Shown: piece by piece, positions 4,453 through 33,259 of the stretch
How positions within the stretch are numbered: the first letter of the stretch is position 1
Layout of the letters: every line of letters starts with the position of its first letter
Source: Candidatus Poseidoniales archaeon
GTDB taxonomy: Archaea; Thermoplasmatota; Poseidoniia; Poseidoniales; Poseidoniaceae
Length of the DNA stretch: 64,000 bases
Assembly (NCBI GenBank): GCA_038150305.1
Contig: JAYOTG010000007.1
Coordinates: 4,230-68,229, forward strand
Direction of reading: 5' to 3'
Translations under genes and position numbers: made by a program
Notes under the pieces: generated by a model
Seen by the model: only the letters and a program-made list of their open reading frames with translations
Database searches by the model: none
Told to the model about the DNA's origin: nothing

Positions 4453-5388
4453 ATGAAGTCATTCCGTCGTGTCGCGTTCCTCGTTGGCCTGTACCTTTGC
4501 TCCGTGCTCATCGTGGCCGTCCCGGCTCAAGCACAGATCCCTGCTGCGGCCGTTTCCATGAATTGTTCTCCCGGTGAAGTTCGCGTTGAAGTGAAGCCTG
4601 GATCCTCTTACTCCGGTTACACCACCTGTACGGTGACCAACCCCACGACCTACATCGAGAAAGTGAACATTCAGGTCACCTCCGACGGCCTTGCCGTCGC
4701 CCACGCCGGTGACGTCTACGTTGGCGCCGGCCAAGACGTCGACTTCCAGGTCGTCGTTCGCGCCGACCCGTACATGGCGATGCAGAGCCGCCAGTTGTCC
4801 GTGACCGGAACGGTCACCGAAATCAACAGCGTTCCTCCTGTGAACGTGGCCAGCTCCCAAACCAACGTGATGGTCAACATCATGCAGTTCTCGCTGGTTC
4901 AGGTTGAGGCCGTCGAGCCGTTCGTCCAGCTCATGCCGAAGACCGACAAGCCATTCGAGTTCAAGGTCACCAACCTTGGCAACCAGATTGACTTCATGCG
5001 CATCGGCATCACCGATGACTCCCGTGAGAAGTTGGAGGAAGACGGCTTCACCATCAACCTCCCTGCCGTCAAGACCCAGATCGAGAACAACCCCGCCGGC
5101 CAGAAGGTCCGCGTCCTCGTCCGCACCCCCAAGGACTGGGGCTGGACCGACCAGTACTACACCATGAACTTCTACGCCGAGTCGGAATTCTCCTGCAAGA
5201 ACGGCGGTTGCGAGCGCGAGTCTCAGATGATCACCATCTACGTGCGCGGTGTGTATCTCCCAGGCTTCGAGGTCGTCCCGACCCTCTCCATGGTCGCCCT
5301 GGCTGCAGCCATGGCAGGCAGGAGCCTGATCCGGACCGAAGAAGAGGAAGGCGTCCCCGTTCTGAGGGAAGCCGCCCCGGGTCTCTGA
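4453..5388 (+). CDS. Secreted cell-surface protein with CARDB/NEW3-like beta-sandwich segments and a PGF-CTERM-like C-terminal anchor
   Basis: N-terminal signal peptide MKSFRRVAFLVGLYLCSVLIVAVPAQAQ. FEFKVTNLGNQIDFMRIG resembles CARDB-like motifs. The C-terminal PGF (nt 5260-5268) is followed by the hydrophobic stretch EVVPTLSMVALAAAMAG, then RS and an acidic tail. Confidence 0.75.
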   Translation: MKSFRRVAFLVGLYLCSVLIVAVPAQAQIPAAAVSMNCSPGEVRVEVKPGSSYSGYTTCTVTNPTTYIEKVNIQVTSDGLAVAHAGDVYVGAGQDVDFQVVVRADPYMAMQSRQLSVTGTVTEINSVPPVNVASSQTNVMVNIMQFSLVQVEAVEPFVQLMPKTDKPFEFKVTNLGNQIDFMRIGITDDSREKLEEDGFTINLPAVKTQIENNPAGQKVRVLVRTPKDWGWTDQYYTMNFYAESEFSCKNGGCERESQMITIYVRGVYLPGFEVVPTLSMVALAAAMAGRSLIRTEEEEGVPVLREAAPGL

Positions 5389-9310: not shown

Positions 9311-9390
9311 GGCTCCACATCACGGCTTGGCCCATGAACCTGCCCGCGGCCAGCGTTGGGCTTATGGTCCGCAGGTCACGACATCACCGC

Positions 9391-10680
9391 ATGGAAAAGC
9401 GTCGCGTTCTCTTGGTCGGCTCCGGTGGACGTGAGCATGCGCTGGCCATGGCCTTGACGCGTGACGAGCGGGTTGAGCTCCACACCGCTCCCGGTAACCC
9501 GGGAACGGCACGCCTCGGCACGAATCATCCGGTGGGCGCTGCTGACGTCGAGGCTCTCCTCGCGCTGGCGGAGGAACTCGACGTGCATCTCGTGGTGGTC
9601 GGTCCAGAAGCGCCTTTGTGCGACGGCCTAGCGGACGCGCTCGGGGATCGAGCGTGCTTCGGTCCTGTGGCTGCGCACGCGGCGCTTGAAGGCTCCAAAT
9701 CCTTCGCCAAAGAAGCCATGGAGGCCGCAGGTGTGCCGACGGCTGAGCACGTCATCGTCCGCAGGGCAGGAGCCCTCGGCGAGGCCCTCGACCGCTTTTC
9801 TGGTGCGCCGTGGGTCATCAAGCAAGACGGGCTTGCCGGAGGCAAAGGGGTGCTCGTCACCGAGGATCGAGGCCAAGCGGAGGCCTTCGCCCTCAGTGCC
9901 ATTTCCACCGCGGGTTCCGTGGTCATCGAGGCCTTCCTCCCCGGTGAAGAAGCCAGCATGCTGGTGCTCATGGATGCCTCCGGATACCGCTGCTTGCCCG
10001 CGAGCCAAGACCACAAGCGCGTGGGTGAGGGCGATGCCGGTCCAAACACGGGCGGCATGGGCGCGTACTGCCCAGCGCCTGTCGTGACCTCCGAGGTTCA
10101 GGCCAAAGTGGAATCGCAAATCGTCGGGCCGATGCATGCCCACCTCACCGCGCAAGAGGCGCCGTACCGCGGCGTGCTTTACGTCGGCCTGATGATCGAC
10201 CAGAAAGGCGACCCCTACGTGGTGGAGTTCAACGTTCGTTTTGGTGACCCTGAATGCCAGGTGACCATGCCGCTGCTCGGAGATCACGCGCTGGATTGGT
10301 TCATGGCCGTTGCGAACGACGACCTTGCCAGCGTGACCCATGTCCTCGAAGAGAGCGCGCTGCTGACGGTGGTTCTCGCGAGCGAGGGCTACCCGTCAAG
10401 CGCGGTGACCGGACGCAGCATCGAAGGACTGGACGTGTCTGAAGCCATCCAGTCCGGACACGGCCGAGCATGGGTCAACATGGCCGGCGTGAAATTGGAC
10501 GCAGATGGCACGCCCATCTCGAGCGGTGGGCGGGTGCTCAGCGTGACCGGCATGAGCGACAGCCTTCAAGAGGCGGCCAACTTGGCCTACGCACGCCTTT
10601 CAGGCCTCGCGCTGGAGGGCGCCCATCACCGCCGTGACATCGGCGCGCGAGCGGGTGTTCAGCATCCGGAGTTGAATTGA
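9391..10680 (+). CDS. purD: Phosphoribosylamine--glycine ligase
   Basis: MEKRRVLLVGSGGREHALAMAL, GPNTGGMGAY and EFNVRFGDPE are present. The track ORF starts at 9334, but ATG 9391 places the conserved VLVxGxGGREHA at the N-terminus. Confidence 0.95.
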   Translation: MEKRRVLLVGSGGREHALAMALTRDERVELHTAPGNPGTARLGTNHPVGAADVEALLALAEELDVHLVVVGPEAPLCDGLADALGDRACFGPVAAHAALEGSKSFAKEAMEAAGVPTAEHVIVRRAGALGEALDRFSGAPWVIKQDGLAGGKGVLVTEDRGQAEAFALSAISTAGSVVIEAFLPGEEASMLVLMDASGYRCLPASQDHKRVGEGDAGPNTGGMGAYCPAPVVTSEVQAKVESQIVGPMHAHLTAQEAPYRGVLYVGLMIDQKGDPYVVEFNVRFGDPECQVTMPLLGDHALDWFMAVANDDLASVTHVLEESALLTVVLASEGYPSSAVTGRSIEGLDVSEAIQSGHGRAWVNMAGVKLDADGTPISSGGRVLSVTGMSDSLQEAANLAYARLSGLALEGAHHRRDIGARAGVQHPELN

Positions 10681-10723
10681 ACACTCGCTCGGGTGACTGC
10701 GGCCCCGTATCGGGCCGAACCGG

Positions 10724-10729
10724 TTATAA
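10724..10729 (+). promoter_or_regulatory. Candidate archaeal TATA box (TTATAA) upstream of the giant aglB gene
   Basis: This is the only A/T hexamer in the 109-nt intergenic region 10681-10789. It lies about 60 nt upstream of ATG 10790, which would give a short leader containing a purine-rich agagaggga. Confidence 0.3.
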
Positions 10730-10789: not shown

Positions 10790-13700
10790 ATGACCACCAC
10801 GAACGAGACGACCGTGTCGTCAAAGACGTCGCTCGGCCTGCTTCTTGCGCCGATTGCCGTCCTTTTGGCGATGCTTACCGACCAAATCGGAGGCTTCGGC
10901 CTCGGATTCGAGAACGACCTGTACCCGCTGCTCTTTGTGGCCGCGGGTGCGATGCTTGGCCGCGTGCCGAGCCTCCTCGCCGAGCGCGAGGTCCTTCCTG
11001 CGTCGACGTCCACCCTCTCTCTCGGGACGATCCTCGCAGGCGCGGCCCTCGGCTTCCTTGCCGTTCCCGCCGTTGGCGGCAGCGCCTTCGTTGGCATGCT
11101 GTTCGCCATCAACCTCATCGGCACCCACGTGCTGGTCAGCGGTGAGCGCTCGGAATGGGCGACCATCCTCACCTTCTCCAGCGTGGGTCTGCTGCTTGGC
11201 ATGGTCGCTGCTGCGACGGCCGGTGACAGCGGGCTCGTGACGAAGGAGTACACCTTCGAAGGCCAAACTGCGCCGACCCTGAACGAATACCGCGAAGCCA
11301 TCGCCTTTGTGTTCTTCAACGTCTGGATCATGTTCAGCGTTCTTGGCGCACTGGTTGCTGTCCTCGCCCGTGGCACGATCGACGAGCCCGGCAAGGGTTG
11401 GTTCGGACACCTGTCGGAATTCGACGGACCTTGGGACCGCAGCAGCCTGCCCCTTCAGGTTGGACTGCTGACGTGGTTCATCGCTCACGCCTTGACCATG
11501 GTCCAGTTCCACCAGGTGGAGCTCCACGACCGACTGGCTTTGACCGGCGTTGAAGGCTACATGGGCCACTTTTCCGTTTGGGCCGCGGTCCTGACCGGGT
11601 TCGTCGCCCTTGCGGTGGCCAGCATGGCCGCCGAGCGATGGTACACCCGTGCCATGACCCTCGGTTCGATGTGGGTCTACTACCTCGTCGCCGCCGCCTA
11701 TGAAATGGGCATGTGGGGCGACGTCGAAAACGAGAGCTCCATGGCTCCTGTGGTGTGGTTTGGTGTGACCTTCTTCATCGGACTGGCCATCTATTCCATC
11801 TCCACGAACAAGTCGTGGGGCGGGTGGAGCAACCGATCTGAGGACGCGCAAAGCGGCGCCCGCGCCTTCTGGTCCGCCCACTGGTCGCAGGTCATGATCG
11901 CCTCGGCGTTCATCATGGCCTTCGTGGTCCGCAGCCAATGGTACGTCATCCCCGCCATGAACGGCTACGGCACCGGCGATTGGGACCTCACCGGAGGTTC
12001 AGACCCGTGGTACATGAAGCGCGTCGTGGACTACATCATAATGCAGAACGCGCACCTCGTCTTTGACGCGGACCGCTTCTATCCGCTGGGCGGCATCAAC
12101 CCGCGTCCGCCCTTGTTCGTGTGGTCCATCGCTCTGCTCGCCATGGTGTTGGAGCCCTTCCTCGCCACCCCCCAGGACGCCGTCTGGTGGGCGATGGTCT
12201 CCATCCCCGCCATCTTTGGCGCGCTGACGGTCTTCCCTGTGGCGGCCATCGCACGCGACCACGTCAGCAAGCCGGCTGCGGTCATCGCGGCATGGCTCAT
12301 CGCCATGATGCCCGGTCACATCTCTCGCTCGACGTGGGCCAACGCGGACCACGACGCCTTTGTGATGTTCTTCATGGCGCTCGGCTTCATGTGGTTCCTT
12401 CGAGCCATGGCCGCGGGCGGTGACGAACGCCTCACGCGGACCACGGACGCCCGCCCCTCCACCGTGCTTCGTGCCTTTGGAGACGTGGCGATGCACCGAC
12501 GCTTCGCCGTGGTCAACGCGGCACTGGCCGGTGTCGCCTTCGGCGTGGTTGCCCTCGGATGGAAGGGTTTCGTGGTTGCGCCGTCGATCCTCTTCGTGGG
12601 GTATGTCTACATCGTCGCGACCAACATGTTCCGTAACAAGGACAGCACCACGCTCAACATGCTGATGCTGACCATGCTGGGAACGACGTTGCTTCTGGCC
12701 ATGCCGTTCTATGCGTATCCAGGCATGGACTTGGTCTTCAGCGGCACGGGCCTGCAGCCCTTGCTGTTCGTGCTCGGCTTCACCATGGCCATCGCTTACG
12801 TGACGACCGGATTCCGTGACAAACCTTGGTTGCTCGTTCTTGGCTCCCTCACCGGCGCAGCCGTGGCCTTCGTGGCCATCATTTGGCTGCTCCAATTCTT
12901 TGAGCAATCCAACGCGTTCAACGTCTTGTTCACCGGTGCAGGCTACTTCACCAAGACCAAGATTTTCGGCACGGTTGCAGAAGCAAACGCGCCTGACCGG
13001 GGGATGCTCTTCGCGTCCTTCGGCCCGATCGTCTTCATCCTCGCGCTCAGCATGGGCATCATCGCCCTGTGGCGAGGCACCCGGCAACGCCGCCACGAGC
13101 ACGTTTTCATGGCCACGTGGATCCTTCTGGCCATCTTCATGTCGTGGACCGCTGCCCGTTTCATCTTCAACGCCACACCGGCCATGGCCGTGCTCGGCGC
13201 TTGGGGTGCAGTGGGCCTTTGGAGCTGGTCTGGCACCAAGGAAATGACGCGCAAGATGCGTCGTATGGGCGTCCGAACCCCGGCCGACCGCATCGCCTCC
13301 GCCCGCAAGGCCGTTTGGCGCACGCCACAATTCAGCGCGATCATGCTCGTCATGATCATGCTCGGTGGCCAGCACATGACCTACGGACTCGACGCCGGCA
13401 TCCCCGGTACGTCTCCCGCTGAGGACGACATCGACGAGACGCTCTACAACGTCGTCCCCGACGTGCTCCGTTGGGACGTGGCTGGTTTCTCCTTCCTGAA
13501 CCCCACCGCCTACGACGACGGCGGCATGCGCTACCTCGGTGCCTTTGGCAGCAGTTTCAACCAGCAAGGATGGAACGATGCGTACGCCTGGCTTGCGGCT
13601 CAGGACGTTGACGAGTCGTACTCCGAAAAGCCGGCCTTCGTCTCATGGTGGGACTACGGCTTCCAAGCCCTCACGTCGGGTGACCACCCCTCCGTCTCGG

Positions 13701-16700
13701 ACAACTTCCAGTCGGGCATTCCGGCCACTGGGAACATGCTGCTGGCCCGCGGCGAAGCCGATTTGGCCGCCATGTGGTTCTGGCAACTTGGTGAAGGTGA
13801 CCGCACGTACGCGGCCGGCCATGGCTACGACTCCACCTTTACCCCGCCATTTGATGCGGTGCTGAAGGACCACCTCAGCGACGCCCAATACGCAGCACTG
13901 ATTGACATCAACGACGGCACAGAATACCGCGACGAGACTCGAGTCATCGACGGTCAGGAGCGAGAATTGAGCCTTCCCGTTGAGGTCTTGGACGCCGCGT
14001 TCCGCGTGACGCAGACCAACCGGGACACCATCATGACCGAAGGTCATAAGCTCAACGACGACGGCACCACCAGCGACGACGTGCGCTGGCGCCTTTGGAA
14101 GGACGGCGAGATCCTCGCCTGTGCCGAGAGCCTCGCCAGTTCGTGTGACGGTACGGATTTCCTGACGCAGGAAGACGCGAACCGCACGTTCAACAACAAC
14201 GTTCGATTGACCTCGGACACCACGTTCGAAGTGACCCACTACGTGTTCGGAAACTACTGGTACACCGCTGACCTCGCTGAAGAGTTCAACTCGGTCTCGA
14301 CGCACATTCACCGTTCGAACGCTCGTCTCGCCATGACCGTCCAACTCTTGGTCAACGGACTCACCGAAGCCCAGGTCATGGACCTCTACACCGACATCAT
14401 CGGTTTGGAAGGCGCCTATTCGGTGCAGGACTACCATGGTGCTCCTGGAGAAATGGTCGACCGTGACCACGAAATCCGCTACTTCGCCGTCGACAACCGC
14501 CTGTACCCACGCGCCGGCCGTTACACGGCCGACGCCCAATACAACGCAGGACAACCCATGGGCATCTTCGCCGCTCCGACCATCCTGTCAGGTCAGGACC
14601 CGACCACCTTCATGACGGAGGTGTACGAGACCCAGCGCGGTGCCTTCACCGATGAAATGACGCGTGAAGAGGTCGACGAAGCCATCCGGCAAGACGTGCT
14701 CAATCAGCAGGCCGGTGCAGAGATTGATCCTGTGCAGATCATCGACGTCCGGGCCGACCACACGGCTCAATTCTTCGACACCATGGTGGCGCGAACCTAC
14801 GTCGGCTACGGTGCGTCCACGCTCGGCGTGGACAGCGACGGCTCCAATCCGCAGCCTGCGCAGCACTTCGGCCAGAGCGGCTCGCCCGGGACCTTCATGG
14901 CGCAAGCCCTGCCGCTCCCTGGCGCGATGATGAACCACTTCGTCCTCGCGAATTACAACGATGACGACAACGCCGAGAACGGCTACGGACAAGCCAACTC
15001 CATGGTCAAGATCCTCAAGTTCTACCCCGGTGCTGAAATGACCGGTCAGGTGACCTTTGCCGACGACGGACAGCCCCTTGAGAACGTGCGTCTCCTCGTC
15101 GAGCGCGACGCCTTCTCTGGCGAATCCGGCGAAGACCTCGACGCAGACACCTATTGGATCCCCATCGGCTTCGTGGACACCGACGAAGAAGGACGCTACT
15201 CCTTCCTTGCTCCAGCGGGCCACATCCGCGTGAGCGCCTTCATCGGCGAGTACGACCCCTCATCCGCCCGCAACGCGATTCAAGACGGCTCTTTCACCGA
15301 GAACCTCGGTGACGTCCTGACCGAATACAACGAGGACCGCACCATCAACGAAATCACCGCCGTCCTTGGCCAGGTCGCCAACATGACGTGGGTGGGTGAA
15401 ACTCACCTCAACGTCAGCGCTGACGAAGCCAACCGTGTGCAGGCGCTTGACCGCACGGCGGACCTTGCCGTGGCCTCGAGCGGTGTGAGCGGTATTGTGA
15501 CGTGGACCGGCGACGAATCCTTCGCCGGTGAACCGCTTGTGGACACGACCTTCATCCTGCGGGACATTTGGTCCTACACCGAGAACCACACCGTGGTGAC
15601 CAACAACGGATCCTTCACCACCGAAGAGACCCGCATCCTCCAGGGGACGGGTGAGGTGACGTTCACCGAGAACGGCACCTTCGAGTCCGACGGCGTTGCG
15701 GTGGCGCGCGAATTCACGGGCACCTACACCCGTCAGCTGAACGGCGATCGCATCCACACCGCCAACGGCACGTGGACCGGTCGAGGCATCATCGAGGGCT
15801 GGGTCAGCGAAGATGACCTTGCCAACGTCTCTGACTGCCTTGACAACAACGCCATGACCCCTGGGAACACCTCGGTCTGCACCATGACCGGTGCCGAAAA
15901 CGCAAGCAAGTACCTGTTCGAGGGAACCGTGACGGCCAGCGGCCGTGTGGAAACCCTCTCGCCGACCGTCGTCGTTCGAGACGTGCAAGGTCAGACCTTC
16001 GAAGGCGCTGGCGTCTTCGAGGGCGTTGGGACCCTCAACGGAACGGGTCTGTTCGCCGGTCAAGGCGACTTCTCTGGACCGATGGTTCAACCCGGTTCCT
16101 TCTACAAGACCGGCTTGCTCCCCGGCGTCTACAACATGTTTGCCGTGCTCCCCAACGGTCGCCAAGTCCTCTTGCCGGACCCGGTGACGGTCGGTGTCGA
16201 AGCCTCGTACGACGTTGAGATGACCATGCCCGGAGCCGTGTTTGCGGACGTCCTCGAGGACATGGAAGGCAATGTCCTGCCTGACACAATCATCGAGCTG
16301 GTGGACACCGTCCTTGGACTGGACGAAGCCGTGACCATCGTCACCGACGAAAACGGCAGCTTCAGCCAAGGTCCGATTCCGTCGGGTGAATACTACTACC
16401 GCGTGGACGTTGATCACGACGGTTGGTACGAAATCAACGCGACGTTCAGCGTTCAAGACGAGCCTGAGAACATCACGCTGGCCTACCCCGTGCCGCCGAT
16501 GACCGACGTCACCATCCAGCTCGAGGCGCCCTTCGGCGGCGACGGCCAGCCCACGGTTGACGTCGTCAACCGTACGGTGACGCTGACCAACAACCTGCCC
16601 GATTCCGGCCTTGAACCGTACGTGGCGGTGAGCGACGAGAACGGCGTTCTGTACGCCGAGGTGCCTATGGGCAGCTACACCATCTCGGACGACGCGGACG

Positions 16701-19700
16701 AAGAGCACCTGCTCCTTGCTCTGCTTGACGTCGAGGAAGACGACATCACGACGACCTTGACCTACGCGGTTTCGACCTGGCTCAACGGCTCCGTTGCCGC
16801 GCCATTCGGCGCTGACAACGGGTACGAAGCTTGGCTTGCGACGGAGGAGCGACCCACAGAGGCCGCCACCCAAGTCGAGGTGGTCGCAAGGGGTGCAGGT
16901 GACCTGACCTTCACCGCGAACACCGGCGACGATGGTGTGTTCGCGATGCGCGTTCCGGTCGACGAGAGTTACTCGCTGACGATGACCAAGGCCACCGTCA
17001 ATTACGGGTACGGAACGGTCGTGAACGTCACCGAGGGCATGGATGACCTCAGCATCGTGCTCGAGCCGATCGAGTTCATCTCTGGCGCACTCTATCACAT
17101 CGACAACAGCACCTTCTGGAACGACGCCATCCCCGGGTGGATGCCCGTTGAGATGACGGCCACCAGCACCGACGGTGTCGTGTGGGAATCCGTCTCGAAC
17201 ACGGACGGCGGCTTCGTCTTCAACCTCCCCGCTGGGACCTACGACATCAGCGTCGTGGACGATGTCCTGTACAACGCGACGTCCGACGATGACGTGGTGG
17301 TGGTTCGCAATCCAGAATTCGTGCTGGAGCCCGCAAGCCTCTACCTCAACCCAGGCGGTCACGCCATGACCTTCCACGTCTTCCAAGATGTGGCTGGAGA
17401 CGGCAACGCCTCCAACGGAAGCACGGTCACGCCAGCGTTCTCGCTCGTGCCGACCACGGAACACGGTGCATTGCTCAACGTGACCGCAGACATGTACGCT
17501 GCAAACGGCACGCTGACGCTGGACATGCCCATCGGCACCTACACCATCGAGTTCGCCGAGCAGGACGTGGCCTCTGAGAACGCAAGCGAGTATGCCTTGG
17601 TGCCTGCCTCACCGCTCTCGGCCATCGTGATTGGCATCCCCGAACCGATCGAGACCATCGACGTCGGGTTGGTGGACGAGTGGCGCATGAACGGCACGGT
17701 CACCGATGCAAACGGTTCCGCCCTTCGCCCGCAAGGCGACAGCGTCTTGCTCGTGTCCACGGACGGCGAGGATTACCGAAACGTCGCTGTGGATGAGAAC
17801 GGTACTTTCGCGGACTATGTGCCAAGCGGCGATTGGATCGCCGTGATTGGCGCGTTCGAAGGTGAGGACGCGACGGAGATCCTCCGGCAGGCCCTGACCG
17901 TGAGCGAGAACAGCGCGCGGACCGACGTGTCCTTGGCCACCGTTGAAGCGGCCGATGTCAACCTCCATCTCCGTGAAGCCCTCAGCGAAGACAACCTGTC
18001 CGGCTTCCGCATGACCTTGGTGTCTGCGGACGGTCTCGGCAACGTGTCTCTGGACTTGACCGACGAAGACGGTCTGGTCGCCGAACCGATGATGCCCGGC
18101 ACGTGGTCGGTGCACATGGAGCGTGACGACGTTCAGGACCGCTGGACGCTCGACACCAGCGCCGCGCCGTTCACCCTCGTAGAAGGCGAGGAGAAGAACA
18201 TCACGGACCTCTACGCCGACCACGAGGTGGAAATCGGTGGTCGACTCTACTGGGACCTTGACGACGACGACACGCCCGATGCCAACGAAGGCGTCGAGGG
18301 CGTGCTCATGAACGTCACGAGTCTCGACGGGACGACCTTTACCTCGAACGTGACCTCGGATGAGAACGGTGTCTGGCAGCTCTTCGTGCCCGTTCGCACG
18401 TCCTACGTGGTGGAAGGCAGCAAGCTGGGCTTTGCCGATGTCGCTTACGACCTCGACGGCAACGGCCTGTACGTGGTCAACGACAGCGCGATGTCCGAGG
18501 ACCTCGAAGTTTCGGTGGGCCTCGTTGACGTCAGCGGAGCCATCACGGATGCTGTCGATGCAACCCGCCTTGACGGCGCCTCCGTCGTACTCCAGCCCGC
18601 TTCAGGCTTGGCACGCGATGCGGTAACCGTGGACAGCACCTCCTTTGACGGGACCACCTTGACGTGGGACGCTCAGGTCGAGCCCGGAGCTTGGGTTGTC
18701 ATCGTTCGAGAAGCCAGCCCCGGTGAGAACAACGGCGCCGTCGCCATCGGTCTGCTTGACGCCAGCGTCGGCTCGGGCGGTCACTTGGACCAGACCATGG
18801 TGCTCGGCGGCTACGTCGACCTGCAAACCTCGTGGACGGCCATCGACTTGGTCCAGCACCACCTTGGCAGCGCCTCGGCCGGTGCTTCGATGATCAGTGA
18901 AGCACCGACCGTCACCGTGGAACTTGACGACGACGTGTCGTGGGACATCACGGTGAACGACGACGGTGCGCTGAGCATGTTGGTCCCCTCGGGCCGTGTC
19001 TCCTTCTCGGCTGACATGGTCACCGTGCAGCACGAACTCGACCTCAACATGAGTTACGAAGGCAGCAACTTCACCACCGTTTCAGCCGATCGGCAGCAGA
19101 TGTTCCTCATCCTCGACCGTCGTGCTGACCGCGACCTCGTGGTCGAAGTGGGCACCGTCGACGCCGACACCGTCGAGTCCTACACGGACGATGCGGGCGG
19201 GGTGGACATCCAGGCCAAGCAGGACGGTGACCACGAGCACACCGCCGTTGAACTCACGGTTGACGTGACCTACGACGGCACGGAGTACGAGGACGTCTAC
19301 ACCGCAAGCGGCAACGCAGGCAACGCTCCTGATGCTTCCGATTGGAGCGTCGAGTTCTGGAACGCCACCGAAGAAGCGTGGCAATCCACGCTTGAGGTCC
19401 GTCTCGGCATCGGTGAAGACGCGTCCACGGACGATGTGCCCATGTCGGCCACGCTGAAGGTGCGCATCACGCTCCCTGACCAGAACACCTCCCTGTCGCT
19501 GCAGAACGGCCACAGCGTGAACGTCATGCTGACGGCTGAGACCGGTGAATTCACCGAGCGTTCGATGACCGTCCGTGTGCCGGTCATTCGCGGCTTCGAC
19601 GTCGAAGCCGTCGACGAACGTGTGGGCATCGGCAGCGATGACGTGCAGACCTTGACGACGACGTTGACGAACAACGGAAACGGCGACGCGACCTTCACCT

Positions 19701-20389
19701 TCGAAGTGGTCGAGAACTACGACGCGACCCTGTGGGAGATCACGCCCGCCTCCAGCACCATCACCGTGGCGGCTGGAGACACGCGTACGCAGGCGTTCAA
19801 CGTCCGTTCTGACGCGAGCTTCACCACCGGTGAACTGGAAGTGACCATTGGCGTCTCCGAGGTCGGCGGAAGCAGCACGAGCCTGCAGATGACCGTGGTG
19901 AACGCGGCCATCGTCCTCAGTGTCGACCAAGACCTGGCGGTGCAGGAATCGGACAACACCGCTGAGCAAGAATCGACGATCGTGGTCATCCCCGTGACCA
20001 ACAGCGGTGAGCGCGATGCGGAGAATTCCGTCATCGTCTACGCCCGTCAACAAGGTGTGGACAAACCATACGAGGCGGTCACGCTGACCGTGCCTGGCGG
20101 TGAAACCGTCAACGCGGAATTCGATGTCGGTTCCATGACCAACGGCAACAAGCGGTTTGAGTTCTACCTCGAGGTGACGGGCGACGATGCTGAGTTTGCC
20201 ACGATTGAGGCCGATTCTGACGGAACTGGAGACGAACCTATCGACTTCCAAATCCGGTTCAACATCGAAACCAACACGGACAACACCGGTGTGGGACAAA
20301 CCGTCCTTGCGCTGCTTGTCATCGCGTTCGTCGGTCTCGTCGTGTGGGGCGGTCTCAGCCTCTCTCGCTCTGGAAGCCGTCGGTTCTGA
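10790..20389 (+). CDS. aglB: Giant (3,199 aa) archaeal oligosaccharyltransferase AglB/STT3 fused to an N-terminal extra TM domain and a ~1,900-aa C-terminal array of beta-sandwich modules ending in a TM anchor
   Basis: One uninterrupted ORF. STT3 motifs: SDPWYMKR (D405, nt 12002-12022), WANADHDAF (aa 516-524, nt 12335-12361) and WWDYG (aa 953-957, nt 13646-13660), the last followed by SDNFQSG. About 370 aa of extra hydrophobic helices lie upstream. At least 10 CarboxypepD_reg-like repeats follow (for example DEEGRYSFLAPAGHIRV, DENGSFSQGPIPSGEYYYRV, TDGGFVFNLPAGTYDISV). CARDB-like segments are TTLTNNGNGDATFTFEVV and VIPVTNSGERDAENSVIVY. The terminal TM is VLALLVIAFVGLVVWGGLSL followed by SRSGSRRF. 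Confidence 0.85.
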   Translation: MTTTNETTVSSKTSLGLLLAPIAVLLAMLTDQIGGFGLGFENDLYPLLFVAAGAMLGRVPSLLAEREVLPASTSTLSLGTILAGAALGFLAVPAVGGSAFVGMLFAINLIGTHVLVSGERSEWATILTFSSVGLLLGMVAAATAGDSGLVTKEYTFEGQTAPTLNEYREAIAFVFFNVWIMFSVLGALVAVLARGTIDEPGKGWFGHLSEFDGPWDRSSLPLQVGLLTWFIAHALTMVQFHQVELHDRLALTGVEGYMGHFSVWAAVLTGFVALAVASMAAERWYTRAMTLGSMWVYYLVAAAYEMGMWGDVENESSMAPVVWFGVTFFIGLAIYSISTNKSWGGWSNRSEDAQSGARAFWSAHWSQVMIASAFIMAFVVRSQWYVIPAMNGYGTGDWDLTGGSDPWYMKRVVDYIIMQNAHLVFDADRFYPLGGINPRPPLFVWSIALLAMVLEPFLATPQDAVWWAMVSIPAIFGALTVFPVAAIARDHVSKPAAVIAAWLIAMMPGHISRSTWANADHDAFVMFFMALGFMWFLRAMAAGGDERLTRTTDARPSTVLRAFGDVAMHRRFAVVNAALAGVAFGVVALGWKGFVVAPSILFVGYVYIVATNMFRNKDSTTLNMLMLTMLGTTLLLAMPFYAYPGMDLVFSGTGLQPLLFVLGFTMAIAYVTTGFRDKPWLLVLGSLTGAAVAFVAIIWLLQFFEQSNAFNVLFTGAGYFTKTKIFGTVAEANAPDRGMLFASFGPIVFILALSMGIIALWRGTRQRRHEHVFMATWILLAIFMSWTAARFIFNATPAMAVLGAWGAVGLWSWSGTKEMTRKMRRMGVRTPADRIASARKAVWRTPQFSAIMLVMIMLGGQHMTYGLDAGIPGTSPAEDDIDETLYNVVPDVLRWDVAGFSFLNPTAYDDGGMRYLGAFGSSFNQQGWNDAYAWLAAQDVDESYSEKPAFVSWWDYGFQALTSGDHPSVSDNFQSGIPATGNMLLARGEADLAAMWFWQLGEGDRTYAAGHGYDSTFTPPFDAVLKDHLSDAQYAALIDINDGTEYRDETRVIDGQERELSLPVEVLDAAFRVTQTNRDTIMTEGHKLNDDGTTSDDVRWRLWKDGEILACAESLASSCDGTDFLTQEDANRTFNNNVRLTSDTTFEVTHYVFGNYWYTADLAEEFNSVSTHIHRSNARLAMTVQLLVNGLTEAQVMDLYTDIIGLEGAYSVQDYHGAPGEMVDRDHEIRYFAVDNRLYPRAGRYTADAQYNAGQPMGIFAAPTILSGQDPTTFMTEVYETQRGAFTDEMTREEVDEAIRQDVLNQQAGAEIDPVQIIDVRADHTAQFFDTMVARTYVGYGASTLGVDSDGSNPQPAQHFGQSGSPGTFMAQALPLPGAMMNHFVLANYNDDDNAENGYGQANSMVKILKFYPGAEMTGQVTFADDGQPLENVRLLVERDAFSGESGEDLDADTYWIPIGFVDTDEEGRYSFLAPAGHIRVSAFIGEYDPSSARNAIQDGSFTENLGDVLTEYNEDRTINEITAVLGQVANMTWVGETHLNVSADEANRVQALDRTADLAVASSGVSGIVTWTGDESFAGEPLVDTTFILRDIWSYTENHTVVTNNGSFTTEETRILQGTGEVTFTENGTFESDGVAVAREFTGTYTRQLNGDRIHTANGTWTGRGIIEGWVSEDDLANVSDCLDNNAMTPGNTSVCTMTGAENASKYLFEGTVTASGRVETLSPTVVVRDVQGQTFEGAGVFEGVGTLNGTGLFAGQGDFSGPMVQPGSFYKTGLLPGVYNMFAVLPNGRQVLLPDPVTVGVEASYDVEMTMPGAVFADVLEDMEGNVLPDTIIELVDTVLGLDEAVTIVTDENGSFSQGPIPSGEYYYRVDVDHDGWYEINATFSVQDEPENITLAYPVPPMTDVTIQLEAPFGGDGQPTVDVVNRTVTLTNNLPDSGLEPYVAVSDENGVLYAEVPMGSYTISDDADEEHLLLALLDVEEDDITTTLTYAVSTWLNGSVAAPFGADNGYEAWLATEERPTEAATQVEVVARGAGDLTFTANTGDDGVFAMRVPVDESYSLTMTKATVNYGYGTVVNVTEGMDDLSIVLEPIEFISGALYHIDNSTFWNDAIPGWMPVEMTATSTDGVVWESVSNTDGGFVFNLPAGTYDISVVDDVLYNATSDDDVVVVRNPEFVLEPASLYLNPGGHAMTFHVFQDVAGDGNASNGSTVTPAFSLVPTTEHGALLNVTADMYAANGTLTLDMPIGTYTIEFAEQDVASENASEYALVPASPLSAIVIGIPEPIETIDVGLVDEWRMNGTVTDANGSALRPQGDSVLLVSTDGEDYRNVAVDENGTFADYVPSGDWIAVIGAFEGEDATEILRQALTVSENSARTDVSLATVEAADVNLHLREALSEDNLSGFRMTLVSADGLGNVSLDLTDEDGLVAEPMMPGTWSVHMERDDVQDRWTLDTSAAPFTLVEGEEKNITDLYADHEVEIGGRLYWDLDDDDTPDANEGVEGVLMNVTSLDGTTFTSNVTSDENGVWQLFVPVRTSYVVEGSKLGFADVAYDLDGNGLYVVNDSAMSEDLEVSVGLVDVSGAITDAVDATRLDGASVVLQPASGLARDAVTVDSTSFDGTTLTWDAQVEPGAWVVIVREASPGENNGAVAIGLLDASVGSGGHLDQTMVLGGYVDLQTSWTAIDLVQHHLGSASAGASMISEAPTVTVELDDDVSWDITVNDDGALSMLVPSGRVSFSADMVTVQHELDLNMSYEGSNFTTVSADRQQMFLILDRRADRDLVVEVGTVDADTVESYTDDAGGVDIQAKQDGDHEHTAVELTVDVTYDGTEYEDVYTASGNAGNAPDASDWSVEFWNATEEAWQSTLEVRLGIGEDASTDDVPMSATLKVRITLPDQNTSLSLQNGHSVNVMLTAETGEFTERSMTVRVPVIRGFDVEAVDERVGIGSDDVQTLTTTLTNNGNGDATFTFEVVENYDATLWEITPASSTITVAAGDTRTQAFNVRSDASFTTGELEVTIGVSEVGGSSTSLQMTVVNAAIVLSVDQDLAVQESDNTAEQESTIVVIPVTNSGERDAENSVIVYARQQGVDKPYEAVTLTVPGGETVNAEFDVGSMTNGNKRFEFYLEVTGDDAEFATIEADSDGTGDEPIDFQIRFNIETNTDNTGVGQTVLALLVIAFVGLVVWGGLSLSRSGSRRF
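15175..19015 (+). repeat. Protein-level tandem array of carboxypeptidase-regulatory-like / Ig-like beta-sandwich modules inside aglB
   Basis: The signature D-[ETD]-[NDE]-G-x-[FWLV]...[VP]-P-x-G-x-[YW] recurs at least 10 times, at about nt 15175, 16340, 16630, 16920, 17200, 17500, 17790, 18060, 18360 and 18960. The copies are divergent at the DNA level and are not a DNA tandem repeat. Confidence 0.6.
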
Positions 20390-20423: not shown

Positions 20424-21608
20424 ATGGGAGCCGTGAGGCCGTCAGCCCTGGATGGCATGGAATTCCTCCCTGAGCCTGGGGAGCCACGCATCCTGACCGC
20501 CGTCGATCCTTCAGCGGTCCAGCACGAAGCCGCATGGCGCTCCGAAGTGATGGGCTGGGCGCCGAGCGTCGTGACCGCTGTCCCTCACCGTCGGCGACGC
20601 GTGGCCCGCTCTTCCCTCGGCCTCGTGGTGCTGCTCATCATGGTCGGTTTGATTGCGAGCCAGGGCTGGTTTCTCGTCGAGATTCCGCTCGGGGATTCCG
20701 AGTGGGCGTTCGACAACACCGGCTTGCGGGACCTCTCGGACGAAGAACTGGACGGCACGGGGGTTCGTGTCTGTGTGGTTGACACCGGGATCGATGCTTC
20801 CCATTCGGCCTTTGAAGGCCAAGAGGTGGAGTTCAGGGATTTCATCGGAAGATCAAGCGAACCGCTGGATCGCGGCGCCACCGCTCACGGCACGATGATG
20901 GTCGGGTTGCTCGTTGCAGACGGCCATCAGCAGGGTGCCGTCCAAGGAATCGCCCTCGGGGTCGCAGCAGCCCTCGCTGGCGACAGCGACGGAGAAAACA
21001 CCGGTGACGACGCCATCGTTGCAGAAGCCATCGATTGGTGCCGCACTGGTTTTGATGCTGACCTCATTTCGCTCTCGTTGGGCGGTGAGCGCGTGGAAGG
21101 TCAGCGCGATGTGGTGGTCTCCTCGGTCCGACGGGCACTGGACGCGGGCATTTTCGTCGTCGCAGCAGCGGGCAACGACGGCGGTGCAGACGACGATGGA
21201 AAGGTGGCTTCTCCTGCCTTCCTGCCGCGTGTCATCGCCGTGGGGGCCACCAATGAAACAGGGGCCGTGTGGGAGAATTCCTCCCGTGGAGACGGGACGG
21301 GCGAGCATCCACATCGCAAGCCAGAGGTCACGGCGCCTGGTGTCAATGTCATCTCAACCGGAGCGAACGACGCATGGTACGCCTCCAGCGGCACCTCTGT
21401 GTCGACGGTCCTGGTCAGCGCTGCGCTCGCCATGATCCTCGAAGCTCATCCTGAACTCAAGGTGGACGACGATCGATGCGTGATTCACCTCAAGCATGCG
21501 CTGAGAGACTCACTCGGAACGTCGCATTCCCCGACGGCCGGGTACGGCGAATTAGACGCCATGGCGTGGTTCAACGCGGTCGATTCGAGCTGTCCAGAAG
21601 CGCTCTGA
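20424..21608 (+). CDS. Membrane-anchored subtilisin-like serine protease (peptidase S8)
   Basis: Catalytic-triad contexts are VCVVDTGIDASHSAF (Asp), HGTMMVGLL (His) and SGTSVSTVLVSAALAMI (Ser). An N-terminal TM SSLGLVVLLIMVGLIASQGWFLV lies about 45 aa before the catalytic Asp. The track ORF start 20187 overlaps aglB in another frame, so I used ATG 20424, 34 nt after the aglB stop. Confidence 0.85.
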   Translation: MGAVRPSALDGMEFLPEPGEPRILTAVDPSAVQHEAAWRSEVMGWAPSVVTAVPHRRRRVARSSLGLVVLLIMVGLIASQGWFLVEIPLGDSEWAFDNTGLRDLSDEELDGTGVRVCVVDTGIDASHSAFEGQEVEFRDFIGRSSEPLDRGATAHGTMMVGLLVADGHQQGAVQGIALGVAAALAGDSDGENTGDDAIVAEAIDWCRTGFDADLISLSLGGERVEGQRDVVVSSVRRALDAGIFVVAAAGNDGGADDDGKVASPAFLPRVIAVGATNETGAVWENSSRGDGTGEHPHRKPEVTAPGVNVISTGANDAWYASSGTSVSTVLVSAALAMILEAHPELKVDDDRCVIHLKHALRDSLGTSHSPTAGYGELDAMAWFNAVDSSCPEAL

Positions 21609-28580: not shown

Positions 28581-29049
28581 GCGTGTCCAGCGGTGGGATG
28601 AGCGCGATGCGCGTGACGCCTTGGTCATAGATGACCCAGATGGCTTCGACGCCGGCAAGCACCACCTCACCTTCGTGTGTGGCGGGTCCAAGACCAGAGA
28701 GGTCCACCGCTGAATCCAGGTCACCACCGGTGTGGTCCAGGCGAAGTTCGTCTTGGCTCAGCACGAGGGTCATCGTGGTTTCATCCGCCTCGGAGGGCCG
28801 CCAATCCACCCGTTCGACGTAGCGAAGATCAGCATCCAATCGCGCTGCATCGTCGGCCCGCTCCACCGCCTCGGCGACATCGTCGAGGTTGGCTTGGATG
28901 GCTGTGGCGTTCCAACGCTCCCGTGTGGCGGTTTCAATCCCGTATGCCCAGACGCCGAACATCGAGAGGAGCACCACGCCAAGCAGGAAGGTGAAGACGT
29001 ACCCCAATTCGGTGGCCGCAGCCCCGTCGTCATGTCGGCTCTGCCTCAT
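28567..29049 (-). CDS. Small archaeal type IV pilin-like protein (class III signal peptide)
   Basis: From ATG 29049 the N-terminus is MRQSRHDDGAAATELGYVFTFLLGVVLLSMFGVWAY, a charged stretch followed by a hydrophobic helix. This start forms an ATGA overlap with the upstream stop at 29046-29048. The track start 29127 would overlap the upstream gene by 82 nt. Confidence 0.6.
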   Translation of the reverse strand: MRQSRHDDGAAATELGYVFTFLLGVVLLSMFGVWAYGIETATRERWNATAIQANLDDVAEAVERADDAARLDADLRYVERVDWRPSEADETTMTLVLSQDELRLDHTGGDLDSAVDLSGLGPATHEGEVVLAGVEAIWVIYDQGVTRIALIPPLDTLNGS

Positions 29050-33129: not shown

Positions 33130-33259
33130 GCCTTACGTCCGCCGTCGGCGAGCGTCAATGAACCTCGCGGTCCAGCCATCGTCGGAACACCGCTCCACCA
33201 CCCTCTTAAGCGTCGCAGAGGGCAAAGAACACGTCGAGGGGCTCGACGGAGGGTGTTTC

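What the first reader, a model, noticed from the sequence alone, without database searches (positions are those of the whole stretch)
10790..20389. Mega-AglB: a 3,199-aa oligosaccharyltransferase fused to an extra TM domain and a ~1,900-aa doubly anchored extracellular stalk
Seen in sequence: one uninterrupted 9.6-kb ORF.
- The STT3 hallmarks sit at aa 405 (DPWYMKR), aa 520-522 (D-H-D within WANADHDAF) and aa 953-957 (WWDYG, then SDNFQSG). That spacing fits an STT3 core beginning near aa ~360.
- So about 370 aa of additional hydrophobic helices precede the core.
- After the usual C-terminal globular region come at least 10 carboxypeptidase-regulatory-like beta-sandwich repeats, then CARDB-like modules, then a terminal TM helix with a basic stop-transfer (SRSGSRRF).
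- By eye, the extension carries more than 30 N-x-S/T sequons.

Established: characterised archaeal AglBs are far shorter, roughly 600-1,000 aa, with WWDYG around residue 500-600.

Inference: this is an OST tethered to, or forming, a giant glycosylated surface structure. It may be its own substrate, or a spacer that positions the catalytic site relative to an envelope layer. I do not know of a described AglB with this architecture.
Basis: partly seen in the sequence, partly recalled or inferred. Interest (0 to 1): 0.75.

Follow-up and report, generated by a model that had tools for sequence, protein, structure and literature searches.

The report
Giant membrane-looped archaeal oligosaccharyltransferase (AglB)
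This is a real, conserved 3,199-residue version of the archaeal N-glycosylation enzyme AglB from a Marine Group II archaeon, and similar 2,100-2,800-residue AglBs occur across the phylum Thermoplasmatota, an architecture I could not find described in the literature.

Summary
Window 10790-20389 (+) is one 3,199-codon ORF. It encodes an STT3/AglB core (aa 356-~1400) in which every catalytic motif is invariant.

- An orphan 10-helix membrane module (aa 1-355) precedes the core.
- About 1,750 aa of β-sandwich domains (~16-18) follow it, ending in one C-terminal TM helix and a basic tail.

It is not a chimera. More than 120 independent protein clusters, down to 45% identity, are collinear over the full length (3183 ± 14 aa). 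They come from both Marine Group II families, Poseidoniaceae and Thalassarchaeaceae, and share the same gene order.

AglBs of 2,070-2,770 aa, with the same stalk and C-terminal anchor but no N-terminal module, are widespread in Thermoplasmatota. They occur in Methanomassiliicoccales, DHVE2 (including Aciduliprofundum sp. MAR08-339) and Marine Group III. Many sit beside purD, as this one does.

The stalk carries 36 sequons against ~15 expected, and 15 of them are conserved in ≥92% of orthologues.

Best reading: an active oligosaccharyltransferase whose C-terminus forms a fixed-length, N-glycosylated rod or arch anchored at both ends, resembling NOMO or SlaB and acting as envelope scaffold or spacer. 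That function is inferred. Novelty: new variant of a known kind.

The parts
10790..20389 (+). Giant aglB gene, 3,199 codons plus TGA stop. A TATA-like TTATAA lies at ~10723-10728 and a purine-rich GAGAGGGA lies 6-13 nt upstream of the ATG.
   Evidence: Full-length orthologues.
10790..11854 (+). N-terminal orphan membrane module (aa 1-355), ten predicted TM helices, N-terminus inside. Invariant residues: P21, E122, F175, R194-G195, E282, W284, G307, F328. Specific to Poseidoniales.
   Evidence: AF2 helices. Alignment A3. No Pfam, PDB or internal homology. Found only in MGII aglB genes or their fragments.
11855..13399 (+). STT3/AglB GT-C transmembrane domain (aa 356-870), 13 TM helices.
   Evidence: Pfam PF02516; TIGR04154 alignment; AfAglB-L alignment; AF2 and Foldseek.
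12002..12004 (+). D405, first catalytic Asp in external loop 1 (GGSDPWY). It aligns with the Asp of GGNDPWY in A. fulgidus AglB-L.
   Evidence: invariant.
12347..12355 (+). D520-H521-D522, the second DxD-type metal-binding motif. It aligns with NDHH of AfAglB-L.
   Evidence: invariant.
12971..12982 (+). T728-V-A-E731, the TIXE-type motif of external loop 5. It aligns with TIAE of AfAglB-L.
   Evidence: T728 and E731 invariant.
13400..15019 (+). Extracellular catalytic and peripheral region (aa 871-1410), including WWDYG. It also holds a variable insert (aa 1001-1200, nt 13790-14389) and a highly conserved block (aa 1201-1410).
13646..13660 (+). WWDYG motif (aa 953-957).
15020..19579 (+). Stalk (aa 1411-2930): about 14-16 prealbumin/CarboxypepD_reg-like β-sandwich domains. 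Each is individually conserved. The region carries most of the conserved N-x-S/T sequons.
   Evidence: Pfam. jackhmmer. AF2 model of aa 1101-2300, pLDDT 75.5. Foldseek. Sequons.
19580..20284 (+). Two membrane-proximal Ig-like modules of CARDB / PLipase_C_C / FixG_C type (aa 2931-3165), with NxGNG motifs.
20285..20386 (+). C-terminal TM helix (aa 3171-3189) and basic cytoplasmic tail ending in RRF-COOH. No PGF motif.
20424..21608 (+). Downstream, probably co-transcribed, membrane-anchored S8 subtilase (394 aa). GGAGG lies 8 nt upstream of its ATG, and it starts 35 nt after the aglB stop. Conserved partner in Poseidoniales only.
9334..10680 (+). purD directly upstream. This adjacency is conserved with the giant aglB in 23 of 80 other Thermoplasmatota loci and marks the locus as orthologous.

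Best explanation
The gene encodes a catalytically competent AglB, the archaeal STT3-type oligosaccharyltransferase, of a Poseidoniaceae (Marine Group II) archaeon.

Predicted topology (24 TM helices):
- N-terminus in the cytoplasm.
- Ten helices of a lineage-specific accessory module.
- Thirteen STT3 helices.
- The extracellular WWDYG domain.
- About 1,750 residues forming roughly 16-18 β-sandwich domains outside the cell.
- One final helix that returns the chain to the membrane, leaving a short basic tail inside.

The extracellular part is therefore a loop or arch fixed to the membrane at both ends. I propose that it is N-glycosylated, in cis or by neighbouring copies, at about 15 conserved sites.

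I propose that it works as a fixed-length, glycan-coated rod, arch or spacer in the cell envelope. The closest analogies are a NOMO-type 'beads on a string' ruler or an S-layer stalk such as SlaB. It would be physically coupled to the enzyme that glycosylates surface proteins.

Shown: identity as AglB, intact catalytic motifs, topology elements, conservation, sequon enrichment and conservation, and distribution.

Inferred: actual glycosylation, the arch geometry, the envelope or spacer role, and any role of the N-terminal module.
For: STT3 identity and fold
- D405, D520-H-D522, T728/E731 and WWDYG are invariant in 57- and 15-sequence alignments that reach 31% identity.

Conservation of the architecture
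- More than 120 clusters are full-length, with length 3183 ± 14 aa.
- Gene order is the same in loci only 46-48% identical.
- Both Poseidoniaceae and Thalassarchaeaceae carry it.
- aa 1201-1900 are as conserved as the catalytic core (0.53-0.74 identity). The distal stalk diverges (0.31-0.49) yet has almost no indels.
- Stalk domains do not resemble each other, so the architecture is fixed.

Glycosylation of the stalk
- 36 sequons against ~15 expected; 15 are ≥92% conserved.
- Mean sequon conservation is 0.54, against 0.25 for reversed [ST]xN and 0.22 for DxS/T.

Stalk fold and anchoring
- The stalk fold matches tandem Ig/prealbumin rods: BaTIE 6fwv at E=1.5e-13, pilins, SdrD, SlaB and the Haloferax S-layer protein.
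- NOMO1-like_9th Pfam hits occur in 8 of 15 members.
- BaTIE is also the published best structural match of NOMO1, a ~27 nm spacer rod with a C-terminal TM (PMC8327139).
- A C-terminal TM plus basic tail is present in 87 of 95 long representatives. Some relatives have a PGF-CTERM motif instead, so anchoring of the far end is the conserved theme.

Expression
- An MGII aglB was among the more highly transcribed genes in coastal metatranscriptomes (PMC9723583).
- STT3 is a core MGII function, present in 95-96% of MAGs (PMC6336850 supplement).
Against: - No experimental data exist for any member: no activity assay, no glycoproteomics, no imaging.
- The two AlphaFold models are of moderate confidence (pLDDT 70 and 75.5; pTM 0.66 and 0.43). 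They say nothing reliable about inter-domain geometry. aa 2301-3199 were not modelled.
- Topology rests on hydropathy and model helices, not on a dedicated predictor.
- I could not test whether these genomes also hold an ordinary-size AglB, so I cannot say this is the sole OST.
- A canonical DK or MI motif after WWDYG was not identified.
- Sequon conservation could partly reflect structural conservation of Asn/Ser/Thr-rich β-turns.
- The spacer or envelope role is by analogy only.
Confidence: 0.55

Rival explanations
1. Polyprotein. The precursor is cut after membrane insertion, for example by the membrane-anchored S8 subtilase encoded 35 nt downstream. The products would be an ordinary-size AglB and a separate, C-terminally anchored surface glycoprotein that acts as an S-layer-like or glycocalyx protein.
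For: - The S8 protease has a cytoplasmic N-tail, one TM helix and an external catalytic domain. It is tightly linked and syntenic in all MGII loci examined.
- A poorly conserved, indel-rich segment (aa 1001-1100: 28% identity, 14% gaps) could serve as a linker.
Against: - The S8 gene is absent next to the 80 non-MGII giant aglB loci, which have the same stalk.
- The variable segment lies inside the catalytic extracellular domain. It sits between WWDYG and the highly conserved aa 1201-1410 block, which also aligns with relatives. A cut there would split the enzyme.
- The proximal stalk (aa 1411-1900) is as conserved as the core, which suggests functional integration.
Confidence: 0.15
2. Substrate-handling scaffold. 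The rod does not build the envelope. Instead it recruits or holds nascent secreted proteins, or the Sec/YidC machinery or S-layer subunits, next to the active site. This would resemble the way NOMO/BOS and OST sit at the eukaryotic translocon.
For: - The stalk resembles NOMO, with NOMO1-like Pfam hits.
- The proximal stalk is highly conserved.
- The window is rich in very large secreted proteins that would need glycosylation.
Against: - No binding domain or partner has been identified.
- The similarity to NOMO is at the level of a common fold (transthyretin/prealbumin-like), not specific homology.
- The strict length constraint and double anchoring are not obviously required for this role.
Confidence: 0.15
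3. Adhesin. The stalk mediates attachment to particles, algae or other cells, and the fusion to AglB is incidental.
For: - The best fold matches are Gram-positive pilins and adhesins.
- MGII archaea are often described as particle-associated heterotrophs (background knowledge; abstracts listed).
Against: - Both ends are membrane-anchored and no distal binding domain is evident.
- The architecture is fixed in length and domain order, unlike variable adhesins.
- The same stalk occurs in methanogenic, acidophilic, halophilic and hydrothermal Thermoplasmatota with quite different lifestyles.
Confidence: 0.08
4. Artefact. The ORF is a chimeric assembly, or a run of separate genes joined by a sequencing error.
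For: A few database entries show the gene split into 2-3 pieces: 408+804+1999 aa in L085, and fragments in L086.
Against: - In those contigs the neighbouring genes (HD, purD, S8) are split too, so the contigs are error-prone long-read assemblies.
- More than 120 independent clusters from ENA, NCBI, JGI, Tara and Logan are full-length, including on contigs of 0.35-2.2 Mb.
- GC content is uniform across the ORF.
Confidence: 0.01

Closest known systems
AglB / STT3 oligosaccharyltransferases with solved structures (A. fulgidus AglB-L, 3WAJ/3WAK/5GMY/7E9S; yeast and human STT3)
   Same: - 13-TM GT-C domain.
- EL1 Asp, DxD-type motif, TIXE-type EL5 motif, WWDYG.
- Best sequence and fold matches.
   Different: - The structurally characterised enzyme is 875 aa; this one is 3,199 aa.
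- Ten extra N-terminal helices.
- A ~200-aa insert after WWDYG.
- No recognisable DK/MI motif.
- A ~1,750-aa β-sandwich extension and a 24th TM helix.
- Scores below the TIGR04154 cut-off (162.7 against 450).
Unnamed 2,070-2,770 aa AglBs of other Thermoplasmatota (e.g. Aciduliprofundum sp. MAR08-339 protein P0294, 2,081 aa; Methanomassiliicoccales; Marine Group III; MFA5772382.1)
   Same: - Orthologous locus, often next to purD.
- STT3 core 30-38% identical.
- Shared peripheral block.
- CarboxypepD_reg-type stalk, two CARDB-like modules, C-terminal TM plus basic tail.
   Different: - They lack the 355-aa N-terminal module (STT3 starts at aa ~20-60).
- They are 400-1,100 aa shorter.
- They lack the linked S8 and β-helix genes.
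- Some carry a PGF-CTERM motif instead of a plain TM anchor.
- They exist only as database annotations such as 'GT39 family', 'carboxypeptidase regulatory-like domain-containing' or 'required for N-linked glycosylation'. I found no description in the literature.
NOMO1 (BOS complex subunit of the eukaryotic ER)
   Same: - A string of prealbumin/Ig-like β-sandwich domains ending in one TM helix and a short cytosolic tail.
- The rod length sets a membrane-to-membrane spacing (PMC8327139).
- Same best structural neighbour, BaTIE 6fwv.
- PF22902 hits in 8 of 15 members.
   Different: - NOMO is a separate protein with a signal peptide, not fused to STT3.
- It has about 12 domains and a free distal end.
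- The similarity is probably at fold level only. Homology was not demonstrated.
S-layer stalks and anchors (Sulfolobus SlaB, Haloferax S-layer glycoprotein) and Gram-positive pilins / TIE proteins
   Same: Heavily glycosylated (in the archaeal cases) tandem β-sandwich surface rods with a C-terminal membrane or lipid anchor. They appear among the fold hits.
   Different: None of these is part of an enzyme. They are anchored at one end only. No lattice-forming domain was identified here.

Membership tests
AglB / STT3 oligosaccharyltransferase (GT-C, Pfam PF02516) | Match to the STT3 family model above the curated threshold | tested here: met
   PF02516: 54.6 bits against a cut-off of 24.5, aa 404-647. 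15 of 15 family members hit.
AglB / STT3 oligosaccharyltransferase (GT-C, Pfam PF02516) | 13-helix GT-C transmembrane fold followed by an external globular domain | tested here: met
   In the AF2 model, aa 356-868 give 13 TM helices. Foldseek best hits are AfAglB-L at E=1.6e-10 and STT3 of yeast and human OST. Model confidence is moderate (pLDDT 70).
AglB / STT3 oligosaccharyltransferase (GT-C, Pfam PF02516) | Catalytic acidic residues: EL1 Asp and the DxD/DxH/DxE motif | tested here: met
   D405 and D520-H521-D522 align with GGNDPWY and NDHH of AfAglB-L. They are invariant.
AglB / STT3 oligosaccharyltransferase (GT-C, Pfam PF02516) | TIXE/SVSE motif in external loop 5 | tested here: met
   T728-V-A-E731 aligns with TIAE of AfAglB-L. 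T728 and E731 are invariant.
AglB / STT3 oligosaccharyltransferase (GT-C, Pfam PF02516) | WWDxG motif | tested here: met
   WWDYG at aa 953-957, invariant.
AglB / STT3 oligosaccharyltransferase (GT-C, Pfam PF02516) | DK or MI motif forming the Ser/Thr pocket | tested here: inconclusive
   No DxxK or MxxI was found at the expected place. A conserved helix with D991...M995...L1000 follows WWDYG. The sequence alignment to AfAglB-L stops before this region.
AglB / STT3 oligosaccharyltransferase (GT-C, Pfam PF02516) | Transfer of a lipid-linked glycan to Asn in N-x-S/T | not testable with these tools
   Needs an enzyme assay or genetics.
NCBIfam TIGR04154 (archaeo_STT3, archaeosortase A system-associated) | Score above the curated subfamily cut-off | tested here: not met
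   162.7 bits against a cut-off of 450. It is the closest NCBIfam model, but the protein is not a member.
PGF-CTERM / archaeosortase A substrates | PGF tripeptide, then a TM helix, then a basic cluster at the extreme C-terminus | tested here: not met
   The C-terminus reads ...NTGVGQTVLALLVIAFVGLVVWGGLSLSRSGSRRF, with no PGF. Some non-MGII relatives do have PGF (P0142, P0149, P0153, P0161, P0177, P0198, P0254).
CarboxypepD_reg (PF13620) prealbumin-like repeat proteins | Family model above threshold; tandem β-sandwich domains | tested here: met
   49.8 bits against 32.3. 15 of 15 members hit. There are 6 jackhmmer-linked units. The AF2 β-domains and Foldseek hits agree. Most stalk domains are too divergent to score individually.
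CARDB (PF07705) | Family model match in the C-terminal modules | tested here: inconclusive
   The window protein has no CARDB hit. It hits PLipase_C_C (28.5 against 24.4) and FixG_C (23.9 against 25.6) at aa 2952-3023. CARDB is hit in 4 of 15 orthologues.
NOMO / BOS complex subunit | Specific homology to NOMO domains and association with a translocon complex | tested here: inconclusive
   PF22902 NOMO1-like_9th scores E=0.0055 here, below its cut-off. The best family member scores 3.2e-6, and 8 of 15 members hit. The fold is shared with many Ig-like rods. Complex membership is not testable here.

The most novel reading that the evidence does not exclude
In Thermoplasmatota, a phylum whose cultured members mostly lack a classical S-layer and whose marine members have never been imaged in culture, the oligosaccharyltransferase itself is the main envelope-organising protein. 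It would be a self-glycosylating, doubly anchored molecular ruler that sets the thickness of a glycoprotein coat. The Marine Group II-specific 10-TM module fused in front of it would supply a missing membrane step of the pathway, such as translocation or recycling of the lipid-linked glycan. It would do so through its invariant cytoplasm-facing E122 / R194 / E282-x-W284 site.
Probability: 0.12. Interest if true: 0.85.

Novelty: new variant of a known kind. Interest (0 to 1): 0.6.

Why it matters
- AglB is the signature enzyme of archaeal N-glycosylation. The forms studied so far are stand-alone enzymes of well under 1,100 residues (background knowledge; the solved A. fulgidus AglB-L is 875 aa).
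- Here a whole phylum, including the most abundant planktonic archaea of the surface ocean, carries a version fused to a 1,500-2,200-residue surface rod of fixed length that is anchored at both ends and sequon-rich.
- If the rod is an envelope spacer or scaffold, it links protein glycosylation physically to cell-surface architecture. It would also give a first molecular handle on the uncharacterised envelope of Marine Group II archaea.
- That envelope bears on virus attachment, particle association and cell shape.
- The orphan 10-TM module is a candidate for an unknown membrane function coupled to the oligosaccharyltransferase.
- Cultured relatives (Aciduliprofundum, Methanomassiliicoccus) carry the shorter form, so the hypothesis can be tested by experiment.

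Tried and rejected
1. **Chimera or frameshift.** Rejected. Full-length orthologues are numerous. The few split versions lie in contigs where neighbouring genes are split too.
2. **N-terminal module as a duplicated STT3 TM domain or an internal 5+5 repeat.** hhalign gave probability <1%.
3. **N-terminal module as a known family.**
   - No Pfam hit in any of 13 divergent members, even at E≤10.
   - No PDB sequence hit with a profile.
   - Foldseek of the aa 1-1200 model returned only STT3 matches.
4. **N-terminal module as a separate neighbouring gene in relatives that lack the fusion (Rosetta-stone test).** The HMM found nothing in ±10 kb of 80 loci. A database-wide profile search returned only 15 MGII aglB fragments. 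That tool scores only word-sharing candidates, so absence elsewhere is not proven.
5. **Stalk as a recent tandem-repeat expansion.** Rejected. Sliding-seed jackhmmer shows almost no cross-matches between domains.
6. **PGF-CTERM sorting of this protein.** The motif is absent.
7. **An agl gene cluster around the gene.** Not found. Only one GT2 gene lies at 47545-48810.
8. **Literature.** Seven full-text searches on AglB or STT3 in Marine Group II and Thermoplasmatota found no description of a giant AglB.
9. **Copy number of STT3 in MGII genomes.** Could not be determined with these tools.
10. **Link between the [R/P]-F C-terminus and the N-module.** Dropped. Similar P-[FIV] endings occur in 2,500-2,770 aa relatives without the module.
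Full report
**Observation**

Window 10790-20389 (+) is a single ORF of 3,199 codons. GC content is even across it (0.61-0.63). The many long antisense ORFs inside it, such as 15260-17464 (−), are what 62% GC DNA produces.

- Pfam places STT3 at aa 404-647 (54.6 bits against a cut-off of 24.5). It also finds CarboxypepD_reg, SpaA/prealbumin, AglB_core-like (weak) and an Ig-like PLipase_C_C module near the end.
- NCBIfam's archaeo_STT3 model aligns to aa 369-990 but well below its cut-off (162.7 against 450).
- The A. fulgidus AglB-L sequence aligns to aa 372-802 and again at WWDYG.

**Not an artefact, and its organism**

A search of 5.8 billion proteins returned more than 120 clusters at 45-97% identity that cover 97-100% of the query and are 3,134-3,227 aa long.
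- Named members are 'Candidatus Poseidoniaceae', 'Poseidoniales', 'Thalassarchaeaceae', 'Euryarchaeota' or 'Thermoplasmatota' MAGs. The window therefore comes from a Marine Group II (Poseidoniales) archaeon, most likely Poseidoniaceae.
- Some copies lie on contigs of 0.35-2.2 Mb.
- Length over 119 sequences is 3183 ± 14 aa.
- Loci whose protein is only 46-48% identical have the same gene order: TctA, hypothetical, HD, two hypotheticals, CARDB protein (−), CDP-archaeol synthase (−), purD, aglB, S8 subtilase, ~1,450-aa β-helix protein, STAND-TPR, pilin-like DUF7289.
- The few split versions in databases (408+804+1999 aa) occur in long-read contigs where HD, purD and S8 are split as well. They are sequencing errors.

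**Anatomy**

1. *aa 1-355, the N-terminal module.* The AlphaFold model of aa 1-1200 (57-sequence alignment, pLDDT 70, pTM 0.66) shows ten helices before STT3 TM1.
   - An even number keeps the STT3 N-terminus cytoplasmic, and the loop charges are compatible with this (my reading).
   - The module has no Pfam match in any of 13 divergent members, no PDB sequence match, no similarity to the STT3 TM domain and no internal repeat.
   - Across members down to 18% identity the invariant residues are P21, E122, F175, R194-G195, E282, W284, G307 and F328. The charged ones all fall at predicted cytoplasmic helix ends.
2. *aa 356-868, the STT3 transmembrane domain.* It has thirteen helices. Foldseek's best hits are AfAglB-L (E=1.6e-10) and the STT3 subunits of yeast and human OST. 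D405, D520-H-D522, T728/E731 and R790 are invariant.
3. *aa 869-~1410, the external catalytic and peripheral region.* It contains WWDYG (953-957).
   - A variable, indel-rich insert follows: the poorest stretch, aa 1001-1100, shows 28% identity and 14% gaps.
   - Then comes a very conserved block (aa 1201-1410) that also aligns with distant relatives.
   - A canonical DK or MI motif was not recognised.
4. *aa ~1411-2930, the stalk.* The second model (aa 1101-2300, pLDDT 75.5) shows nine successive β-domains with two unusually long-stranded units.
   - Foldseek matches tandem prealbumin/CnaB-type rods: BaTIE 6fwv (E=1.5e-13), pilins, SdrD, SlaB and the Haloferax S-layer protein.
   - Sequence methods link only six units to each other. 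Sliding-seed searches show that each ~100-aa segment is well conserved among orthologues but almost never matches another segment of the same protein. It is a fixed series of individual domains, not an expandable repeat array.
5. *aa 2931-3165.* Two Ig-like modules with NxGNG motifs (PLipase_C_C/FixG_C here; CARDB in 4 of 15 orthologues).
6. *aa 3171-3189.* One strongly hydrophobic helix, then SRSGSRRF.

The total is 24 predicted TM helices, with both ends of the ~2,300-aa external part fixed in the membrane.

**Selection pattern**

Identity to the query by region (118 orthologues):

| Region | Identity |
|---|---|
| N-module | 0.34-0.49 |
| STT3 core | 0.61-0.73 |
| aa 1201-1900 | 0.53-0.74 |
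| aa 1901-3199 | 0.31-0.49, with almost no gaps |

The proximal extension is as constrained as the enzyme. The distal part is constrained mainly in length.

The stalk (aa 1251-3165) carries 36 N-x-S/T sequons where shuffles give about 15. Fifteen of them are present in ≥92% of orthologues. Mean sequon conservation is 0.54, against 0.25 for the reversed motif and 0.22 for D-x-S/T (Mann-Whitney p=0.003 and 0.002). This is good indirect evidence that the stalk is N-glycosylated at defined sites.

An exhaustive HMMER search with the STT3 core against 1.84 billion representatives gave 683 hits.
- The first tier contains the 3,146-3,228 aa proteins, in which STT3 starts at aa ~333-397.
- Behind it is a large tier of 2,000-2,770 aa proteins at 27-39% identity, in which STT3 starts at aa ~20-60. 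These have no N-terminal module.
- Of 95 such representatives of ≥1,900 aa, 87 end in a hydrophobic helix and a polybasic tail. Several have a PGF motif in front of it, which is an archaeosortase signal.
- They share the peripheral block and the same stalk plus two CARDB-like modules.

A scan of one genome per GTDB species found at least 474 loci. The 80 kept come from Methanomassiliicoccales, DHVE2, Marine Group III, 'Poseidoniia', Halarchaeoplasma, Natronoplasma, Saliniplasma, Lutacidiplasma and Thermoplasmatales MAGs. Where complete, their ORFs are 2,070-2,536 aa.
- purD lies next to aglB in 23 of these 80 loci, as it does in the window, so the loci are orthologous.
- The S8 and β-helix neighbours are specific to Marine Group II.
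- Aciduliprofundum sp. MAR08-339 has a 2,081-aa member annotated 'putative membrane protein, required for N-linked glycosylation'.
- The N-module HMM finds nothing in the flanks of these loci. A profile search of the large database returned only Poseidoniales aglB fragments.

**Mechanism**

*Shown.* This is an AglB with all recognisable catalytic residues under strict conservation. It has a large acidic region (pI ~4) between TM13 and a terminal TM helix. That region consists of β-sandwich domains, is rich in conserved sequons and has a tightly conserved total length.

*Inferred.* The region is extracellular, as follows from STT3 topology. It is glycosylated by the enzyme it is attached to or by neighbouring copies. 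It forms a rod or arch whose dimensions matter.

The nearest functional analogue I can name is NOMO1. It is a string of Ig-like folds ending in a TM helix that behaves as a ~27 nm ruler for ER lumen width. Its best reported structural neighbour, BaTIE, is also the top hit here (PMC8327139). S-layer stalks such as SlaB are a second analogue.

I estimate about 17 domains. At roughly 4-5 nm each (BaTIE: four domains, 19 nm), the contour would be about 70-80 nm. A doubly anchored arch could therefore reach 35-40 nm at most. This is an estimate, not a result.

The N-terminal module is an orphan. Its invariant cytoplasm-facing E/R/E-x-W residues suggest a binding site, but I can only speculate. It might serve as a docking site for cytoplasmic glycosyltransferases, or handle or recycle the lipid-linked glycan.

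**Rivals**

The membrane-anchored S8 subtilase starts 35 nt downstream behind a GGAGG. It makes post-translational cleavage into enzyme plus surface protein a reasonable alternative for Marine Group II. However, it is absent from the loci of relatives with the same stalk.

A substrate-handling scaffold and an adhesin are less well supported. An artefact is excluded.

**Expression and literature**

- A Marine Group II aglB was among the genes with higher transcript abundance in coastal metatranscriptomes (PMC9723583). I cannot prove it is this gene.
- STT3 is listed as a core function in 95-96% of MGII MAGs (PMC6336850 supplement).
- Seven full-text searches found no paper describing an AglB of this size or architecture. 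A 2024 review of archaeal N-glycosylation does not mention one in the passages retrieved (PMC11407970).
- The library lacks many subscription papers, for example the 2020 AglB phylogeny by Nikolayev et al. Prior mention cannot be excluded.

**Verdict**

The finding is real and the anatomy is essentially as described.

The real novelty is broader than claimed, because it is a phylum-wide, undescribed AglB architecture. It is also narrower than claimed, because only the 10-TM module and the extra length are special to this lineage. I rate it a new variant of a known kind, with interest 0.6.

Noticed in passing
window 20424-21608 (+): S8 subtilase of 394 aa with a cytoplasmic N-tail, one TM helix (aa 64-84) and an external protease domain. 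It starts 35 nt after the aglB stop, behind a GGAGG. It is syntenic in all MGII loci seen and absent beside the aglB of other Thermoplasmatota.
   Followed up: partly
window 21702-26042 (+) and 26052-28580 (+): A 1,446-aa secreted β-helix/Big_7 protein, then an HTH + STAND (AAA_16) + TPR protein. Both keep their place downstream of aglB in distant MGII loci.
   Followed up: partly
window 33080-39013 (+) and ~39060-44498 (+): Two further ~1,900-aa proteins with N-terminal hydrophobic signal-like segments and no convincing Pfam match. These are more giant surface proteins of unknown function.
   Followed up: no
window 6752-8611 (-), 21702-26042 (+), 38913-44498 (+): Several large secreted proteins end in acidic, tryptophan-rich tails (...MAPWDDV; ...HPGWLWDAATNQWVPDPDYVPSTE; ...GLPDGWTEEQWAHYGWSYLDVQ). 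This may be a shared C-terminal sorting or attachment signal.
   Followed up: no
window 4453-5388 (+): A 311-aa secreted protein with LPGF + hydrophobic helix + Arg near its C-terminus. It resembles PGF-CTERM but is followed by ~25 more acidic residues.
   Followed up: no
window 29046-32269 (-): Two adjacent proteins with archaeal type IV pilin-like N-termini (DUF7289 / Pilin_N), 724 and 350 aa.
   Followed up: no
window 9334-10680 (+); loci L005-L083: purD sits directly upstream of the giant aglB in Marine Group II and in 23 of 80 loci from other Thermoplasmatota. This is an old and unexplained adjacency of a purine-biosynthesis gene and the oligosaccharyltransferase.
   Followed up: partly
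representatives P0142, P0149, P0153, P0161, P0177, P0198, P0254: Some non-MGII giant AglBs carry a true PGF motif before the terminal helix. In those organisms the far end of the oligosaccharyltransferase may be processed and lipid-anchored by archaeosortase A.
   Followed up: no
C-termini of MGII-type proteins (P0121-P0131; window aa 3197-3199): All MGII-type proteins end in [R/P]-F-COOH. The 2,500-2,770 aa subclass of relatives ends in P-[F/I/V]. The meaning of this conserved terminal residue is unknown.
   Followed up: partly
window 46188-47177 (+): An apparent fusion of a pyroglutamyl peptidase (Peptidase_C15) domain with a NUDIX hydrolase domain in one 330-aa ORF.
   Followed up: no
loci L085 and L086: Long-read MGII contigs (886 kb; a 99 kb pilon-polished contig) in which aglB and most neighbouring genes are broken into pieces by frameshifts. 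They are a source of spurious 'stand-alone' N-module and stalk proteins in databases.
   Followed up: yes
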